Below the pieces are notes generated by a model that searched no databases, was not told the DNA's origin, and was given only the letters and a program-made list of their open reading frames with translations. The position numbers and the translations under genes are program-made. Shown piece after piece: positions 53,500-61,354 of a stretch of 64,000 nt of DNA (within the stretch, counting starts at the first letter, position 1; every line of letters begins with the position of its first letter). The stretch lies in the NCBI RefSeq assembly GCF_009914755.1, contig NC_060938.1. One strand, written 5' to 3'. Source of the DNA: the human T2T-CHM13v2.0 reference genome, Homo sapiens.

Positions 53500-53798
53500 T
53501 GCCAGTTTTGGTAGACAACATATAACAGTAAGTGTACATACAAATAAACACATCTAGACGTGTATACACACACATAAATGAAAATCCAGTAGCTCGGAAC
53601 CTTAGCCATGAGATAGCAATACAAGCTTACTGGTTTTACTTTACCCCAATAGATAAGCCAATGAAGGCTATGAACCAAAATTTCGGGTAAAGCAGTTTGG
53701 TTGTTAAAGGCCAGACCTCCCCAGACTCCAAAGAGTGCTGGAGCCAAACAGTACCAAAGGAGGGCATCACACATTAACCAGGCTCCTTGCTCAGAACA

Positions 53799-54178
53799 GC
53801 AGCACAAGTGGGATCCATGCAACACCATCCCACTTTCCCAGTAGACAGTAAACTCCAGATTCTAAACAATATGGGGGCCAAGCAGCCATTGCAACTGCAA
53901 GAGAAAATTCTAAGGAGGGCTTAGTACTAGACCTCATAACCTCTGCCAAGAGCATCCACTTTGGGGAGGTTGAGGTCTACAGGATCCCCCAGAGCATCCT
54001 CCTGTGGGCTCCAATCTTAGAGTGTCAGATGTCTCTGACCTTAGGTGGGCACTGGCACCACTTTGCATGTGTTCCCTCCAGAGCCTGCTATGAGCTTTCC
54101 TTTGGTACCTGGGTGTAATCCCTGACTTTTAGCATCCTTATAATTTGATAAGGCCATGCCTTCCCATCCTTCCTGTTC
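53799..54178. repeat. Left copy of ~380-bp direct duplication flanking the inner provirus
   Basis: Matches 59980-60358 with 12 substitutions and 1 indel by hand count. Confidence 0.95.
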
Positions 54179-54605
54179 TGTTAGAAACAAATTTTCAGTG
54201 CCACAAAGTGAACCCAGCACTCAGGCAAAAGTTTTCTCAGCAAGGCAATTTACTTCTGTAGAAGGGCGCTTCCTGCATGCAAGGCAGAGGCAAGGGGGAG
54301 CATGCAAAACAAAGGAGAACAGGATTTTCTTATCCCTAACGCAGACCCTGTTCCTGTGTCTTCCCCCTGTGGGCTGGGGTCAGACCGCACAACCTAGGCT
54401 AATTCCGATTGTCTACAGTTGACATCATCAAAGGAGGCAAGGGTGGGCCTTTGACAGGAAGCACAGGTATAGTACATTTTGGGGTGTTTGGGCACAGCAG
54501 AGAGAGGGAGGGCTGATAGATGAATGGGTATGATTACCTTTTAGAATAGAACAAAGAACCAGGCACAGAAACTCTTTGAAGAGGAACTATTTGTGGTCAA
54601 CAACA
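54179..54605 (-). repeat. 3' LTR (LTR10-like) of inner provirus
   Basis: TG...CA ends; PPT AAGAGGAGGAAAT at 54618-54606; variant poly(A) signal AGTAAA at 54254-54249. Confidence 0.92.
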
Positions 54606-54622
54606 ATTTCCTCCTCTTGAAT

Positions 54623-56620
54623 TTATACATGTTCCGCTTTAAACCTATCTAATATGATTCGGATTTCGTGTTCGTTCACGGGGAAGAATTTGTTACTATA
54701 GGATTGGGAAGAACTAGGGAAGGTTTTGTTACTAGCTGTCTCTATAAGTCTTTGGACTAGTCCACGAATGCAGGGCATGATGCAGCATCCAACAAGAATA
54801 AGCACAGCTATTGCGATTGCGAGAGAGGTAACAATAGAGGCCATGAGTCCTTTCCATTTACCAAACCATTGCCCTAACCATCCTGTGAAAGGGTCAGTTA
54901 TCCCAGAATTTGTGGCTAATTCATCTGATAAGGAGGTAAGACCTTGTAAAGCTTTTGTAATTGTTCCATCAGGAGCTGTATTGTTGGGAATGTAGGTGCA
55001 GCATTGGGTTCCTATCATAACACAAACTCCACCTTTTTCTGCTAATATCATATCTAAGGCCATTCTGTTTTCCCAAGCCATTTGGCTAGTAGGCCCTAAT
55101 TGTTCAGCTATTCCTTGGATAGCATCCCTAGTGTAATTAATAAATCGCTGCTGGTTATAATAGATGTAATTTATCCAAGCTACATTTTTATTAATAGCTA
55201 CCATTGGAAATAATGATTCAAATCCTGCAGCTACTGGGTCTCGGGCTTTGAATCTATCAGGTACCCCCTGTGGGACTCCAATTTCATCTACATAGACATG
55301 AGAGTCGAAAGATCCTTGAGGGGCCTCTCTTGTTTTACGGCGTTGTGGTTTCTTTTTTTCTGGTTGTTGAAATGCCAGGGTGAAAGGGATGGCCAATTGA
55401 ATTAGAGCACAAGTACCACTCCAGTTACTTGGCAGAGTGTCTAGCAGGTGACCACCACAATACCACCATACATCAGCTCGGGCATGAACAAGTGCAGACT
55501 GATTGGTAAGCTCTTGGAAAGACTTAAGCTCACTGCATCCCTTTAGGTCCCCAAGAAACTCCAAATTTTTTCCCTGTCGTGAGAGACAGGAAGTAAACTT
55601 GGCATCTGGAGATGGAGGCTGGATGGCCCTCGGGGGCTCACCCTCAAGGTGTTGAGTTTCAGGGAATAGCACAGAGAGAGTTCGACAGAATTCACTATCC
55701 CAGGCTGTAGGGTGTTGGAAAAGAGCCACCATGCAGCCCATGCCCGGTTGGTCAGAAGACCATCCAAGTGGAAAGGGGACGACTTGGGCCTCTGGCCTAC
55801 CTTGCGCACAAGCGTAACAGTCGCTTTTGTTTAGACTGCGAACGGAATATTCAATCCATTCCATCCAGGCATTTGTTTCTTTGTATCCTGTTTCAATTGT
55901 CAGTGTTTGTTTTAAATTTTTAACCTCTACAATAGCTACTTTGCTTTTGTCATTAGATGAAGAGACAATGGTCTGGTTAGCAGGTGTAGAAGAGGATAGA
56001 CGTGGAGATATGAGGGATGGAGATGTACTGAGGTGCAACTCGAAGAATCCTATGGGGTCTTTCCCTCTTACATCTGCTCCCATACCATAGAAACGGTTTA
56101 GGGTGGGGGAGGAATCTTGGAGAGTTGGGATGGTGATGGAAATTTGCACCGGGTTACATTGGTTATATCGACAATTGGGAGGGGCAATTCCTTTAGTAAA
56201 ATGGATATAGGGCTTTAGAACCGCTAGCGGGAAATCCTGTGAGGGGACCCAATCTTGACGTTGAGTGGTCCAAACGACATATTCCCAAGTATGACAAAAC
56301 GGAAAGCTAAACAAGGTAGAAGCATCTGCTTCGGAGGGGCAGAGATATTTCTCTGCTGCTGCAAGCTGTCTCTGGCTTTGGAGATCCCCACAAGGTATAA
56401 CTAAACAAGCATCGAAGGTAATGGTCTGGGGTGAGTCTGATCTAGTTACGTTAATAATGAGGTGGCTAGCAAGAGCACAAGGAAAGAAGAAGGAGTAACA
56501 GAATAGATGAAAGAGAATTAAACTTTCCTTAGCTTTAGTTTGGTAGGATTTTCCCCTGGGACTATGGCCCATGACGCTGGAGGGGGCGGTGCTTTCTTGA
56601 CTCGGGTGTGATGGGTCCAT
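54623..56620 (-). CDS. ERVPb1: Intact gamma-type retroviral envelope, 665 aa (EnvP(b))
   Basis: Open 665-codon ORF with signal peptide (LILFHLFCYSFFFPCALA), CXXC (CYAC), furin site RKTR (55339-55328), ISD ENRMALDMILAEKGGVC, CX6CC (CVMIGTQCC) and TM helix. Length, PBS-Pro and antisense RIN3-intron position fit ERVPb1. Confidence 0.95.
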   Translation of the reverse strand: MDPSHPSQESTAPSSVMGHSPRGKSYQTKAKESLILFHLFCYSFFFPCALASHLIINVTRSDSPQTITFDACLVIPCGDLQSQRQLAAAEKYLCPSEADASTLFSFPFCHTWEYVVWTTQRQDWVPSQDFPLAVLKPYIHFTKGIAPPNCRYNQCNPVQISITIPTLQDSSPTLNRFYGMGADVRGKDPIGFFELHLSTSPSLISPRLSSSTPANQTIVSSSNDKSKVAIVEVKNLKQTLTIETGYKETNAWMEWIEYSVRSLNKSDCYACAQGRPEAQVVPFPLGWSSDQPGMGCMVALFQHPTAWDSEFCRTLSVLFPETQHLEGEPPRAIQPPSPDAKFTSCLSRQGKNLEFLGDLKGCSELKSFQELTNQSALVHARADVWWYCGGHLLDTLPSNWSGTCALIQLAIPFTLAFQQPEKKKPQRRKTREAPQGSFDSHVYVDEIGVPQGVPDRFKARDPVAAGFESLFPMVAINKNVAWINYIYYNQQRFINYTRDAIQGIAEQLGPTSQMAWENRMALDMILAEKGGVCVMIGTQCCTYIPNNTAPDGTITKALQGLTSLSDELATNSGITDPFTGWLGQWFGKWKGLMASIVTSLAIAIAVLILVGCCIMPCIRGLVQRLIETASNKTFPSSSQSYSNKFFPVNEHEIRIILDRFKAEHV

Positions 56621-57280
56621 CCTTTCTCGGCAGTTCAGACTGCAGTTTCAGTTGTTAGGAGCACTAGATATGGTCCCTCCCAGGACGGTTCAAGTTTCTC
56701 TTCTTTCCAGCTCTTATTGAGGCCGTAGTCTCCGGGCCGGTGCTGATGGACTGGAAACTCAAGAGGCAGCGTTTGCGCTAAGAGACCTTTAGTCCTAAGG
56801 GAAGATAAGGTAGAAGACAGACCAAGTATATAATTCCTAAGGAACTGATCTTTGGTCTCAAAAGTGGGACTGTCACTAGTGGAACTTAAATATGGTAACC
56901 TATAGAGCATTTCATAAGGGGATAGGCCAACATCTGTTTGAGGGGCAGTTCGGATCCTGAGTAGAGCGATGGGGAGACACTTAGCCCAGGGTAATGGACT
57001 TTCTGAAATTAACTTAGATGATTTTTTAAAGTCTGATTCATCCTTTCTATTCTTCCTGATGAGGATGGATGCCAGGGGTCATGATACTCCCATTTGATTC
57101 CTAAAGTTTGAGTAAGCCCTTTAATGATATTTGCGGTAAAGTGATTCCTGTTGTCTGAGTCAGTGTTTTCTACTGGCCCGAACTGAGGTATTATCTTCTC
57201 TAGTAATACTTTAACCACATTTTTAGCTGTTGCGGGGAGGGGAATGGCTTCAACTCAATGGGTGAGGTGGTCTACTATTA
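56518..57280 (-). pseudogene. pol remnant: integrase core and C-terminus only
   Basis: IVDHLTH*VEAIP..VVKVLLEKIIPQFG..HPSSSGRIERMNQTLK..WEGPYLVLLTT with in-frame stops. The frame ends at 56518 and overlaps the env start. Confidence 0.9.
56957..56986 (-). promoter_or_regulatory. Candidate env splice acceptor
   Basis: Minus strand GGCTAAG (branch-like) TGTCTCCCCATCGCTCTACTCAG|G, within integrase where gammaretroviral env acceptors usually lie. Confidence 0.55.
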
Positions 57281-58908
57281 TGCCATGAGCAGGACAGTTT
57301 CTTTTTCCTTCCCCAACTCAGGGCATTCTCTTTTGAAGTGGCCTGCTCTTCCACATTTGAAGCACCTATCCTGTCCTCCCACTCTCTCATTTCCAGGATT
57401 ATTTGACCTTGCTCCCCCATACTCTTTAGAGGGCCTGGTAGCTGAGGGTCTGGGTCCGCTAGTTGGAGGCTTGGGTTTGGACCCTTTATAATTCCTGGTC
57501 CCCTGGAGTCTCTGTTTAGAAGCATATGGCTTGAAGCCGTCTGTTGGAAGGTGGATAGCATAAGTTTCATTTTTTGTTTTTGCTTTTCTTAATCTCTCCT
57601 CACATATACTTTTTGGGCTTCTCCTAGGGGTTCCTCTCTGGACCGGTTTTTTGTTTTTCTAGTTTCTGCAACTTCTTTGCTATATCTGGCCAGCTATTTG
57701 TGACAAAATGTAGCTTTAATATTCCTTGCCCAAGAGGGTCTTCTGGATCCAAATCTGCATATTTCCTTATTTGTTCCCTTAGTCTTTCTAGAAATTTCAT
57801 GGGCCCTTCATCTTTTTCCTGTTGTATGTCAAATGTTCGGGAAAGATTCTGAGCATGGGGCACTGACTCCCGAATTCCTTTAATTATCATTTCCCTAAGA
57901 TCTTTCATATTTTCCCAGCAGACTGCATTGTTATTATCCCATTGAGGATCTTGGGCTGGGAATTTCTGGTCTGCTGCAGGAACATTTTGGCCAGGAGAAT
58001 GTTCACATTCCCAAATTGTCATAGCAGCCCTGTGAATCATCCCCCTTTCTTCCCCTGAGAAGAGGATACCCAGGATGGACATTAATTCGGCCCAGGTATA
58101 TAACTGGGGGCCTAGGAATTGATCTGCTACCCCATATGGGTCATCTAGCAGTGGCTTAAGTTCTTTCTTTAAACCTTGAACCTCTGAACTAGTCAAGGGA
58201 GCATTTACAAAGCCAGTAGCTCCTCCTGCCTGGGACACCTCTCTCAAAGGGAAGAGAGTTGGAGCTGATTCCTTAGAGGCAGAGGGGAAAGGAAGATTTT
58301 GAATATCCTTCTTACATGGTAGTCCCTTTAGGGAAGGATACTTAGGCTGACAAGGAACAGACTCATGGGGTGGTGGTAATTCCCAAGAGTCAGAGTATAA
58401 GGGGGAGGAATAATAGGAGTAGCAGAAGGATCTGGGACCGAGTCCAGGGTAGCAGCAGCTGCCTGTGGAGGGGACAGGTCAAGTTGGGGGGAATTAAATG
58501 GGGAAAGGTGGTTTAGAGGGTTCCAGGAGTTGGGATCCCTCTGCCTAGGGGTTGGTTTTACTACGCCTTCCCCTGTATTCTTTAGGGGAAAGAGGAGAAC
58601 AGGTTGTTTTCTCCAGAAGAGGGCATAGTCTCTTCCCGCAAGACAAGACTTTTGTCATTCACATACTGAGTTAAAAGTTAACAGACCCAATCCTCATCTG
58701 ATCCATATTTTGGCAAGAAGATGGCAGGTTTGCGGATGGGTTCCTTGGCCCAAATGAAACAACAATATTTTATCATCTGTTGCTTTTTCTTGTGCCTATT
58801 CCTCTCATTCTCCTTCCAATATTTCAGCATGAGACCTAGAGGACTATCAGAGGGGATCTGACTATCCCCGTCCTTACCTTTCCCTGTTGTACTAGGAGTG
58901 TTTCCCAT
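57281..58908 (-). pseudogene. gag, disrupted by stops and frameshifts
   Basis: MGNTPS myristoylation start (58908), PPPY late domain (~58400), capsid MHR IQQEKDEGPMKFLERLRE, zinc knuckle CFKCGRAGHFKREC (57364-57323). Confidence 0.92.
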
Positions 58909-59346
58909 CTTGGAAGTTTTGGATGCCCCCTTGACTGTGTGTGTGGCCCAATCTCTCTTACTAGAGTTCTCTTGCCTTCCCTTTTCTCTAGAGGCTCAAC
59001 CCCCATTAATGGAGGTTTCTTGCACTCCTTTCCATTCACTTCATCCTATCTGGCCACTTCCTTCACAGGAAATTAGGTCCCTCTTAGCATTGGCATGCAG
59101 GTATAAGCCCCATGGCAGGATCTGCCCTAAGCCATATGAAGATGAGGTGACCACAGAACCACAGAACCACAGACAGGACCCACTCACCCCGGACAGCAGT
59201 AATGCCTATCACCATTCACACAAGCAGCACCGCAAGCAGTGGTGCCTATGATCATTCACACACACTTTCAACCTCCAGGATATCCCGACCACCAATGAAA
59301 TACTTCACCGCCCCCACAGCTTTTCTTACTTTGGTCTTGTGCGCAA

Positions 59347-59355
59347 AGTTACCTG
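59347..59355 (-). promoter_or_regulatory. Candidate leader splice donor of inner provirus
   Basis: Minus strand CAG|GTAACT (GT at 59352-59351); a second weaker AAA|GTAAGA lies about 25 nt further on. Confidence 0.5.
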
Positions 59356-59530
59356 GTCGCCACGGTATTTGTAGGCAAGTCTTTCCTTCCAACGTTGCCG
59401 AGAGTCCAGGTTTATTCGTCACAGTGGGTGGGGTCCCAATCTCTAGCCCTTGAGGCCACGTCAGCAAGGCAGTGGGTCGCGTCTCCCCCTGGGAGATGAC
59501 CAGAGACCCCTTCCCCAGAGGAGAATGGGA

Positions 59531-59548
59531 ATCCTGGGCAAGGCCCCA
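59531..59548 (-). other. Primer-binding site, tRNA-Pro
   Basis: TGGGGCCTTGCCCAGGAT vs canonical TGGGGGCTCGTCCGGGAT (14/18), 3 nt from the 5' LTR. Confidence 0.8.
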
Positions 59549-59551
59549 GAT

Positions 59552-59979
59552 TGTTAGAAACAAATTGTCAGTGCTGTGAAGTGAAACCCAGCATTCAGGC
59601 AAAAGTTTTCTCAGCAAGGCAATTTACTTCTATAGAAGGGCGCTTCCTGCATGCAAAGCAGAGGCAAGGGAGAGCTTGCAAAACAAAGGAGACCAGGAGT
59701 TTTTATCCCTGAAGCAGACCCTGTTCCTGTGTCCTCCCCCTGTGGGCTGGGGTCGGACCACACAATCTAGGCTAATTCCGATTGGCTACTGTTGACATCA
59801 TCAAAGGAGGCGAGGGTGGGCGTTTGACAGGGAGAACAGGTACAGTATATCTTGGGTGTGTTTAGGCACAGTGGAGATAGGGAGGGCTAATAGATGAATG
59901 GGTAAGATTACCTTTTAGAATAGAACAAAGAACCAGGAACCAAAACCCTTTGAAGAGGAACTATTTGTTCTTAACAACG
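59552..59979 (-). repeat. 5' LTR (LTR10-like) of inner provirus, likely env promoter
   Basis: About 90% identical to 54179-54605; CCAAT at 59785-59781, GATAAAAA at 59707-59700, PU.1-like AAGAGGAACT at 59953-59962. Confidence 0.9.
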
Positions 59980-60358
59980 GCAGCACAAGTGGGATCCATG
60001 CAATGCCATCCCACTTTCCCAGTAGAGAGTAAACTCCAGATTCTAAACAATTTGGGGGTCAAGCAGCATTGCAACTGCAAGAGAAAATTCTAAGGAGGGC
60101 TTAGTACTAGACCTCATAACCTCTGCCAAGAGCATCCCCTTTGGGGAGGTTGAGGTCTGCAGGATCCCCCAGAGCATCCTCCTGTGGGCTCCAATCTTAG
60201 AGTGTCAGATGTCTCTGACCTTAGGTGGGCACTGGCGCCACTTTCCATGTGTTCCCTCCAGAGCCTGCTATGAGCTTTCCTTTGGTACCTGGGTGTAATC
60301 CCTGACTTTTAGCATCCTTATAATTTGATAAGGCCACGCTTTCCCATGCTTCCTGTTC
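59980..60358. repeat. Right copy of ~380-bp direct duplication
   Basis: See 53799-54178. Confidence 0.95.
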
Positions 60359-60854
60359 CGTGAACTTTAATGATAGGAACTGGAGGCTGGGTGGGTTTCT
60401 TTTGCCCTTAGCCAGTTGAATAGGAGAAGGGAAGAATTTAGCATAAGAAAAGAAGGTTTAAGTCCTGAAACATGCGAGTTTGCTCTGAGCTGTGCCACAT
60501 GTAGGGATCAGGGACCACACTCAGAAAATATTTTTTTTTAAAAAAAGAATCCCTTCCCATTCTGGACAGGGCAATTATTCCCATTCATTCCTAGGCCTTC
60601 AGGCAACACTGGGGAGTGACCCCAGCCAATTATCCTCAACTTCCAAGGAGCTACTGGGAAACAGCCACTGAAAGACGGAAAAAGAAAGAGAGAGAAAAAA
60701 AAATGAAAAAGACCCTGGTCCCTTAAGTGAACCAGGCAGTGGCATTTAGGCTTCTCCACATGGAAACGCCTTAGTTTCACTGGCCACGGCCAGAAACCTG
60801 CAGTTGCTTTCGTATTTAGGCGCTGCCCACCAAGGGTCCTGAGTCGGAAAGGAA

Positions 60855-60902
60855 AAGAGAGAGAGAGAGAGAGAGAGAGATTGATTGATTGATTGATTGA
60901 TT
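60855..60902. repeat. (GA)n(GATT)n compound microsatellite in MER61 leader
   Basis: Direct inspection. Confidence 0.9.
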
Positions 60903-60972
60903 CCCCTGTATGGAGCAGAAAGGAAAAAGAGAAAGGAGAAAAAGGAATCCCAAACTTTGGACTTACCTCTTC

Positions 60973-60990
60973 CTCCCCGCTGGCTCGCCA
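60973..60990 (-). other. Primer-binding site, tRNA-Arg, of MER61 element
   Basis: TGGCGAGCCAGCGGGGAG vs TGGCGAGCCAGCCAGGAG (16/18), followed by a strong donor GAG|GTAAGT (GT at 60966-60965). Confidence 0.8.
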
Positions 60991-60995
60991 AAATA

Positions 60996-61354
60996 TGTCA
61001 CCAGTGGAGGGTGTCCAGGTTCTTGGCATCTTGAACAAAGAATTAGACAAAACGCACGAGCAAAACAAGGAAGGAATGAAGGGGTTTACTGAAAATGAAA
61101 GTACACTCCACAGTGTGGGAGCAGGCCCAAGCATAGGGCCTCAAGGGCACCGTTACAGAATCTGGGGGAGTTTAAATACCCTCTAGAGGATTCCATTGGT
61201 TACTTGGGGTACACCCTATGTAAATGAAGAGTATGAAGTAAAGATACAAAGTCATTTACTTGGCCTGCGCCCTATGGAGAGGATATTTCCTGTCATAGCT
61301 GAAGTGCGAACTGGCCTTACGTTCCCTGCCTCCAGACCCTATTTTCCTGCCCCA
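60996..61354 (-). repeat. 5' LTR of MER61 element
   Basis: Paralog of 47903-48258; CCAAT at 61199-61195 and TATTTAAA at 61178-61171 on the minus strand. Confidence 0.88.

What the first reader, a model, noticed from the sequence alone, without database searches (positions are those of the whole stretch)
53799..60358. The env-carrying provirus has a ~380-bp flanking duplication instead of a 4-5 bp TSD
Seen: the 380 bp just left of the 3' LTR (53799-54178) recur just right of the 5' LTR (59980-60358) in direct orientation. The right junction has a short AAC(A/G) microhomology between the LTR end and the target. Established: integrase normally makes a 4-6 bp TSD; long duplications arise from aberrant one-ended integration finished by host repair and are rare among HERVs. 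Inference: this domesticated env arrived by an atypical integration or a later DNA-level rearrangement. I do not know whether this has been described for ERVPb1.
Basis: partly seen in the sequence, partly recalled or inferred. Interest (0 to 1): 0.8.

Follow-up and report, generated by a model that had tools for sequence, protein, structure and literature searches.

The report
Long flanking duplication around ERVPb1 provirus
The ancient provirus that carries the human ERVPb1 envelope gene is bracketed by a 380-base repeat of host DNA instead of the usual 4 bases, most likely the scar of a faulty one-ended integration, a rare but already known kind of event.

Summary
The order on the + strand is X, D1, 3' LTR, gag/env, 5' LTR, D2, Y. 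D1 (53795-54178) and D2 (59976-60358) are 96.4% identical and end exactly at the outer LTR ends.

D is not proviral. It is an inner piece of an older host repeat. In 8 of 8 other genomic copies examined, X-D-Y is continuous and D occurs once.

- **U5 junction:** clean and canonical.
- **U3 junction:** keeps the full LTR end and shows a 4-nt AACA overlap with the target.
- **Normal TSD:** none here (GTTC vs GCAG), whereas a sister provirus has a perfect 4-bp one.

This fits integrase joining one end and host repair joining the other.

One thing does not fit. The D pair differs by 3.4%, the LTR pair by 9.4% (Fisher p about 0.0006), and D is not evolving slowly. I infer later D1/D2 gene conversion. 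A later rearrangement is not excluded, because no primate orthologues could be reached.

Duplications of 61-450 bp are already reported beside HERV-K loci. I found no description for ERVPb1 in the seven papers searched for these terms. Aagaard 2005 is not held. This is a new member of a known kind, of moderate interest.

The parts
53505..53794 (+). X: left part of the older host repeat that was the integration target
   Evidence: Continuous with D in 8 of 8 other genomic copies. Homology to the family starts at about 53501-53507.
53795..54178 (+). D1: left copy of the duplicated host block, abutting the outer (U5) end of the 3' LTR. The first 4 bases, AACA, are the overlap; the strict duplicate is 53799-54178.
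54179..54605 (-). 3' LTR of the ERV-P(b)1 provirus. On the + strand it reads TGTTAG...AACAACA.
   Evidence: A purine-rich tract follows on the inner side.
54623..56620 (-). Intact env ORF (ERVPb1 / EnvP(b)1), 665 aa
   Evidence: Pfam TLV_coat E 1.2e-11.
57624..58082 (-). Open fragment of the degraded gag gene (152 aa)
   Evidence: Pfam Gag_p30 E 2.9e-23.
59531..59548 (-). Primer-binding-site-like stretch just inside the 5' LTR
   Evidence: Position read. PMC555746 (passages) assigns the family's PBS to tRNA-Pro. I ran no tRNA comparison.
59552..59979 (-). 5' LTR. Its outer (U3) end now reads ...TTAACAACG where 8 of 8 other LTR ends of the family read ...A.
59980..60358 (+). D2: right copy of the duplicated host block, abutting the outer (U3) end of the 5' LTR and running on into Y
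60359..61351 (+). Y: right part of the older host repeat. The family ends at about 61351.

Best explanation
The 380-bp repeat is an oversized target-site duplication made when the ERV-P(b)1 provirus entered an older host repeat more than 44 million years ago.

**Integration (inferred).** Integrase joined only the U5 end of the viral DNA, at the D|Y boundary. The other end, U3, kept its processed ...AACAACA 3' end. Host repair enzymes joined it 380 bp away through a 4-nt AACA/TGTT overlap. About 380 nt of host DNA was copied in the process, so block D now lies on both sides.

**Later change (inferred).** Non-allelic gene conversion later homogenised most of D1 and D2. That is why the pair looks about three times younger than the LTR pair.

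**What is shown.** The duplication, its exact coincidence with the LTR ends, the single-copy state of D elsewhere, the overlap, and the disagreement between the two clocks.

**What is inferred.** Which enzymes acted, and that conversion occurred.
For: 1. D1 and D2 are 96.35% identical over 384 columns and abut the two outer LTR ends exactly.
2. In 8 of 8 other copies of the host repeat, X, D and Y are continuous and D occurs once. None of the 38 other scored D matches lies within 10 kb of another (40 of 141 candidates were scored).
3. There is no 4-bp TSD here: GTTC left of the provirus, GCAG right of it. A sister provirus on contig 18 has a perfect ATTA/ATTA, and a solo LTR has TAAT/TAAC. None of the three sister proviruses has a repeat abutting its LTRs.
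4. The U5 junction is a clean TG...CA end with no overlap. At the U3 junction the LTR is complete, and its last 4 nt equal the 4 nt that precede D in the target. The target read ...AACA GCAGC: 5 of 5 other copies that cover the site have A there. The chance of a 4-nt match is about 1/256.
5. PMC5041404 (Background and Discussion passages) describes this outcome in ASLV and HIV vectors. One end is normal. The other is joined by host enzymes, usually with a short stretch of homology. Host duplications of hundreds to thousands of bp are the commonest result.
6. For conversion: D is not slow. Its distance to other copies, relative to their distance from each other, is 0.85-0.89, against 0.93 for X and 0.89 for Y. 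Mismatches also cluster at the edges of D: 9 in 105 sites, against 4 in 278 central sites.
Against: - If the duplication dates from integration, the D pair should be as diverged as the LTR pair. It is not.
  - All sites: 13/383 (3.4%) for D against 40/425 (9.4%) for the LTRs.
  - After dropping CpG-like transitions: 2.1% against 7.1%, Fisher p = 0.0008.
  - Private changes: 5 and 4 of 352 for D1 and D2, against 18 and 16 of 407 for the two LTRs.
- Conversion is an added assumption, and the support for it is weak.
  - The edge/centre heterogeneity is only marginal (permutation p = 0.045). The best partition found (5-362) is not the one I would have drawn.
  - Changes shared by D1 and D2 are not enriched in the centre, as a single central tract would predict: 6 of 99 edge columns against 7 of 253 central columns.
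- The aberrant end shows no truncation or filler, so integrase could have joined both ends and the overlap could be chance.
- The true empty site and the monkey orthologues were not seen.
Confidence: 0.55

Rival explanations
1. Integrase joined both viral ends, but in two uncoupled half-site reactions 380 bp apart on opposite strands. Gap filling then gave a 380-bp TSD. D1 and D2 were homogenised later.
For: Both LTR ends are complete and canonical (TG...CA), with no truncation or filler. The polarity of the two joins is the same as in a normal TSD (read).
Against: The 4-nt identity between the LTR end and the target just before D would then be coincidence, about 1 in 256. The published account of aberrant proviruses assigns the second end to host enzymes (PMC5041404 passages). 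This reading needs the same extra conversion step as the best explanation.
Confidence: 0.17
2. The provirus first integrated normally. The second D copy was made much later, at roughly one third of the provirus's age, by a DNA-level rearrangement. No gene conversion is then needed.
For: The D pair is 3.4% diverged against 9.4-11.5% for all four LTR pairs of the family. D evolves at a normal rate. Taken at face value, D1 and D2 share an ancestor at about 15 My, if the LTR pair is set to 44 My. That figure is my arithmetic from K2P 3.48% and 10.13% and the 44.2 My split in PMC8123466.
Against: A later event would have had to place its breakpoint exactly at an LTR terminus, with the LTR end intact to the last base. 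No remnant of a 4-bp TSD is seen. I know of no mechanism that targets the ends of an integrated provirus. The edges of D show 9/105 = 8.6% divergence, which is LTR-like.
Confidence: 0.12
3. Two sister proviruses integrated 380 bp apart, in the same orientation, on different chromosomes of the ancestral population. Homologous exchange inside the proviruses then joined the left flank of one to the right flank of the other.
For: Both junctions are clean integrase-type ends. The two LTRs are not resolved as sisters in the family tree (supports 71 and 25) and share only 1 derived site, against 5-10 in the other pairs.
Against: The LTR tree is a star, so the lack of sisterhood says little. Two independent hits within 380 bp while both were still polymorphic is very improbable for a family with four proviral LTR pairs and one close solo LTR among the 40 scored matches of 770 candidates; PMC555746 gives four proviruses. 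It does not explain why D is less diverged than the LTRs. The AACA overlap would again be chance.
Confidence: 0.04

Closest known systems
Long direct repeats flanking HERV-K(HML-2) loci: 250 bp at 7p21.2, 61 bp at 6q21.1, 450 bp at 21q21.1, and 15-18 bp at chimpanzee Pan2Ap (PMC4422153, Discussion passage)
   Same: An endogenous retrovirus is flanked by a host duplication far longer than 4-6 bp. Those authors attribute it to inefficient integration with host polymerases.
   Different: Those loci are young, human- or chimpanzee-specific betaretrovirus-like elements, and three are solo LTRs. This one is a gammaretrovirus-like provirus more than 44 My old. It carries a conserved, expressed env gene, and its duplicated blocks are much less diverged than its LTRs.
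Experimental aberrant integrations of ASLV and HIV-1 vectors with one poor viral end, sub-optimal integrase inhibitor, or weakened integrase (PMC5041404, passages)
   Same: One normal junction. The other end is joined with a short homology. The host DNA next to the aberrant end is duplicated by hundreds of bp.
   Different: In the experiments the aberrant end was often truncated or carried extra DNA, whereas here it is complete. Here no defect is visible in either LTR end relative to sister LTRs. The event was fixed in a germ line.
Ordinary integration in the same family, for example the contig-18 HERV-P(b) provirus
   Same: The same LTR termini (TGTTAG...AACAACA) and a provirus of similar age: LTR pair 10.0% diverged, against 9.4% here.
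   Different: That provirus has a perfect 4-bp TSD (ATTA/ATTA) and no repeat abutting its LTRs. The chr14 provirus has no 4-bp TSD and a 380-bp duplication.

Membership tests
Aberrant (one-ended) retroviral integration with long host duplication | The provirus is flanked by a direct repeat of host DNA much longer than the family's normal TSD, ending exactly at the LTR termini. | tested here: met
   380-384 bp at 96.35%. Its ends fall at 54178/54179 and 59979/59980.
Aberrant (one-ended) retroviral integration with long host duplication | The duplicated block was single-copy at the target before integration. | tested here: met
   Tested by proxy only. 8 of 8 other copies of the host repeat hold D once, within a continuous X-D-Y. 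The true empty site in tarsier or lemur was not available.
Aberrant (one-ended) retroviral integration with long host duplication | One junction is a normal integrase junction. | tested here: met
   The U5 end is a clean TG...CA terminus with no overlap with the target.
Aberrant (one-ended) retroviral integration with long host duplication | The other junction shows the marks of host repair: truncation, filler DNA or short homology. | tested here: inconclusive
   A 4-nt AACA overlap is present, but there is no truncation or filler. One base of the overlap is inferred from D1 and from 8 other LTR ends, because the junction now reads AACG.
Aberrant (one-ended) retroviral integration with long host duplication | The duplication is as old as the integration, so flank-pair divergence is about equal to LTR-pair divergence. 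| tested here: not met
   3.4% against 9.4%. For non-CpG-like sites, 2.1% against 7.1%, p = 0.0008. Later gene conversion is needed to rescue membership. Only the edges of D (9/105) match the LTRs.
Aberrant (one-ended) retroviral integration with long host duplication | The duplication is present in every species that shares the provirus. | not testable with these tools
   No primate genomes are held. The papers read give ORF and locus conservation only.
Normal concerted integration (4-bp TSD) | Identical 4-bp host repeats lie directly outside both LTRs. | tested here: not met
   GTTC against GCAG. The sister provirus on contig 18 shows ATTA/ATTA.
HERV-P(b) provirus family | [quoted passage not shown] | tested here: met
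   Among the 40 scored matches of 770 candidates, the genome search with the LTR finds four LTR pairs spaced 6-8.5 kb apart, plus one close solo LTR. Env and Gag domains are present. The four-member family and the Pro PBS are as stated in PMC555746 (passages). I did not test the PBS against tRNA.

The most novel reading that the evidence does not exclude
The duplication is not an integration scar. It arose some 12-15 million years ago in the ape lineage, tens of millions of years after the provirus was fixed. The process would have had to cut or copy exactly at the terminus of an already integrated LTR. It left direct repeats that could now excise the env gene precisely.
Probability: 0.08. Interest if true: 0.75.

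Novelty: new member of a known kind. Interest (0 to 1): 0.4.

Why it matters
- **History of a co-opted gene.** ERVPb1 is one of the few human env genes kept intact and expressed for more than 40 million years. This finding suggests it entered the germ line by a faulty integration of a kind otherwise known from laboratory vectors and a few young HERV-K loci.
- **A second clock.** The duplicated flanks act as a clock beside the LTRs, and the two disagree threefold. That is a concrete warning for LTR- or flank-based dating, and a clean test case for gene conversion between short repeats 6 kb apart.
- **Possible loss of the gene.** The two 96%-identical blocks are in principle substrates for recombination that would remove the provirus and restore the empty site.

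None of this changes what is known about how the Env protein works.

Tried and rejected
- **D as a complete repeat unit (the LTR of an outer provirus).** The first genome search seemed to show many hits spanning 1-379/384. This was an artefact of using D alone as the query. With flanks added, the homology runs on through both D boundaries.
- **CpG decay as the cause of the clock gap.** Removing CpG-context sites or CpG-like transitions leaves the gap in place.
- **Slow evolution or constraint on D.** The relative distances to other copies are like those of X and Y.
- **A central conversion tract.** Support is only marginal (p = 0.045). The distribution of shared changes does not back it. Those counts are also confounded by possible subfamily differences.
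- **Naming the host repeat.**
  - No repeat library is available here.
  - The ORF listing of L003 shows only short frames.
  - The Fig. 1C legend of PMC555746 lists MER51B and Alu elements at the envV/envP(b) loci. I could not see the figure, so the name stays unconfirmed.
- **Sources that were not available.** Aagaard 2005 and Oh 2006 are not held.
Full report
**Observation**

The repeat is real. The repeat finder and blastn give two pairs:

| Pair | Coordinates | Identity |
|---|---|---|
| D1 / D2 | 53795-54178 vs 59976-60358 | 96.35% over 384 columns (13 mismatches, 1 indel) |
| LTR pair | 54179-54604 vs 59552-59978 | 89.95% over 428 columns |

D occurs only twice in the window. The order on the + strand is X, D1, LTR, internal, LTR, D2, Y.

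The provirus lies on the minus strand, antisense to RIN3.
- The 665-aa env ORF (54623-56620) matches Pfam TLV_coat.
- A 152-aa open fragment (57624-58082) matches Gag_p30.

**What block D is**

A genome search with D alone gave 40 scored matches out of 141 candidates, at 79-89% identity. At first this looked like a complete repeat unit. That impression came from the query's own limits.

With flanks included, the homology of 8 of 8 other copies (L003-L010) runs unbroken from about 53501 through D1. From D2 it runs on to about 61351. In each of those copies D is present once.

Other findings on D:
- None of the 38 other scored D matches lies within 10 kb of another.
- D is absent from the 1.5-kb flanks of 9 of 9 other LTR loci of the proviral family.
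- The three sister proviruses have no repeat abutting their LTRs.

So D is an inner piece of an older, apparently non-coding host repeat of at least 1.67 kb here, and longer in other copies. The provirus inserted into that repeat, and D is truly duplicated only at this locus.

**Junctions**

Aligning ten LTRs of the family, together with their flanks, fixes the LTR termini as TGTTAG...AACAACA on the window's + strand. All 8 other ends examined read A after ...AACAAC.

- **Left (U5) junction.** D1 ends ...CCTGTTC and the LTR begins at once with TGTTAG. D2 ends with the same bases and runs on into Y. There is no overlap with the target.
- **Right (U3) junction.** The sequence reads ...TTAACAAC-G-GCAGC. 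D1 begins AACA-GCAGC. The 5 of 5 other host-repeat copies that cover this site read A before GCAGC. In that alignment one row, L007, was misplaced by my span error, and two rows have deletions at the site.

At the time of the event the junction therefore read ...AACAACA|GCAGC. The LTR was complete, and its last four bases were identical to the four target bases in front of D. One later A-to-G change gives today's sequence.

No 4-bp TSD exists here: GTTC on one side, GCAG on the other. Elsewhere in the family:
- the contig-18 provirus has a perfect ATTA/ATTA;
- a solo LTR has TAAT/TAAC;
- the contig-5 and contig-3 proviruses have no recognisable TSD.

**Mechanism**

The polarity of the two joins is that of a normal TSD stretched to 380 bp. 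One end is clean. The other carries a short homology next to a duplication hundreds of bp long.

PMC5041404 describes this pattern for ASLV and HIV vectors in which integrase inserts only one end (Background and Discussion passages). In that account a host polymerase extends a free 3' end on nearby host template, usually from a short homologous stretch, and recombination closes the structure. A join on one side of the integrase site deletes host DNA. A join on the other side duplicates it.

My reading is that integrase joined U5 at the D|Y boundary and the host joined the intact U3 end through AACA/TGTT. The enzymes are inferred, not shown. Two uncoupled integrase half-reactions remain possible, because neither end is truncated. 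The 4-nt match would then be chance, about 1/256.

**The clock problem**

If D was duplicated at integration, D1/D2 and the two LTRs started identical on the same day. They have not diverged equally.

| Measure | D pair | LTR pair |
|---|---|---|
| All mismatches | 13/383 (3.4%; K2P 3.5%) | 40/425 (9.4%; K2P 10.1%) |
| Without CpG-like transitions | 8/383 (2.1%) | 30/425 (7.1%) |
| Transversions | 5/383 | 15/425 |
| Private changes vs most other copies | 5 and 4 of 352 | 18 and 16 of 407 |

- For all mismatches, Fisher p = 0.0006. Without CpG-like transitions, p = 0.0008. For transversions alone, p = 0.07.
- The three sister proviruses have LTR pairs at 10.0-11.5%. So the D pair is the outlier, not the LTR pair.
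- The provirus predates the platyrrhine-catarrhine split at 44.2 My (PMC8123466 passage). LTR-based estimates are 53.6-54.7 My (PMC3048862 passage).
- By my arithmetic, the D pair scaled to the LTR pair corresponds to roughly 15 My.

D is not evolving slowly. Its distance to other copies, relative to their distance from each other, is 0.85-0.89, against 0.93 for X and 0.89 for Y. D1 and D2 also share 13 changes that most other copies lack.

The simplest reconciliation is gene conversion between D1 and D2 after integration. The evidence for it is mixed.
- For: the mismatches cluster at the edges, 9 in 105 sites (8.6%, LTR-like), against 4 in 278 central sites (1.4%).
- Against: a permutation test over all partitions gives only p = 0.045, with its optimum at 5-362. 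Shared changes are not enriched in the centre: 6 of 99 edge columns against 7 of 253 central columns.

The alternative is that the second D copy was made much later. That would need a breakpoint exactly at an intact LTR terminus, and I know of no mechanism for it. I rate it low but cannot exclude it without orthologues.

**Recombination between two proviruses**

Recombination between two nearby proviruses is not excluded by the LTR tree. The tree is a star in which the two LTRs are not resolved as sisters. But this scenario is improbable on numbers, and it does not explain the clock gap.

**Literature and novelty**

Thirteen papers contain 'ERVPb1'.
- Seven papers were searched: PMC8123466, PMC7683403, PMC3048862, PMC4724089, PMC555746, PMC13410904 and PMC13461226.
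- 'Duplication' (or 'duplicat') was searched in five of them (not PMC4724089 or PMC13461226). 'Target site' was searched in six (not PMC555746). 'TSD' was searched in PMC8123466 and PMC7683403 only. None of these terms occurred where searched.
- The first primate study of the locus, Aagaard 2005, is not held, so a prior description cannot be ruled out.

This is therefore a new member of a known kind. What sets it apart is its age, the domesticated gene it carries, and the flank/LTR clock discrepancy.

**Limits**

No primate genomes and no repeat library were available. The name of the host repeat is unconfirmed, and the age of the duplication in other lineages is untested.

Noticed in passing
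L011-L019 (G000 contigs 14, 5, 3, 18, 8): The close LTR family looks like a small burst. Among the 40 scored matches of 770 candidates there are four proviral LTR pairs and one solo LTR at 87-90% to the query. The LTR pairs are 9.4-11.5% diverged and the tree is star-like. The two chr14 LTRs share only 1 derived site, against 5-10 in the other pairs.
   Followed up: partly
L013/L017 (contig 5) and L015/L016 (contig 3): These two sister proviruses show no recognisable 4-bp TSD (TTAT vs AAAT; CCTA vs TAAG). One LTR start on contig 3 is altered. This could reflect mutation or exchange between proviruses.
   Followed up: no
L003:2719-2940 (G000 contig 23): Another copy of the same host repeat carries a distantly related LTR-like stretch, 74% to the chr14 LTR, in the opposite orientation inside its Y part.
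   Followed up: no
L018/L019 flanks (contig 18): A 406-nt direct repeat at 82% lies 600 nt and 280 nt away from the two LTRs and does not abut them. It is probably two copies of a common interspersed repeat.
   Followed up: no
window 60538-61134, minus strand: A 198-aa ATG ORF lies inside the Y part of the host repeat. Its sequence is low-complexity (LSLSLS runs), so it is probably spurious.
   Followed up: no
window 53795-54178 vs 59976-60358: D2 keeps 3 CpG dinucleotides and D1 keeps none. One of the D2 CpGs was created by the A-to-G change at the LTR junction.
   Followed up: partly
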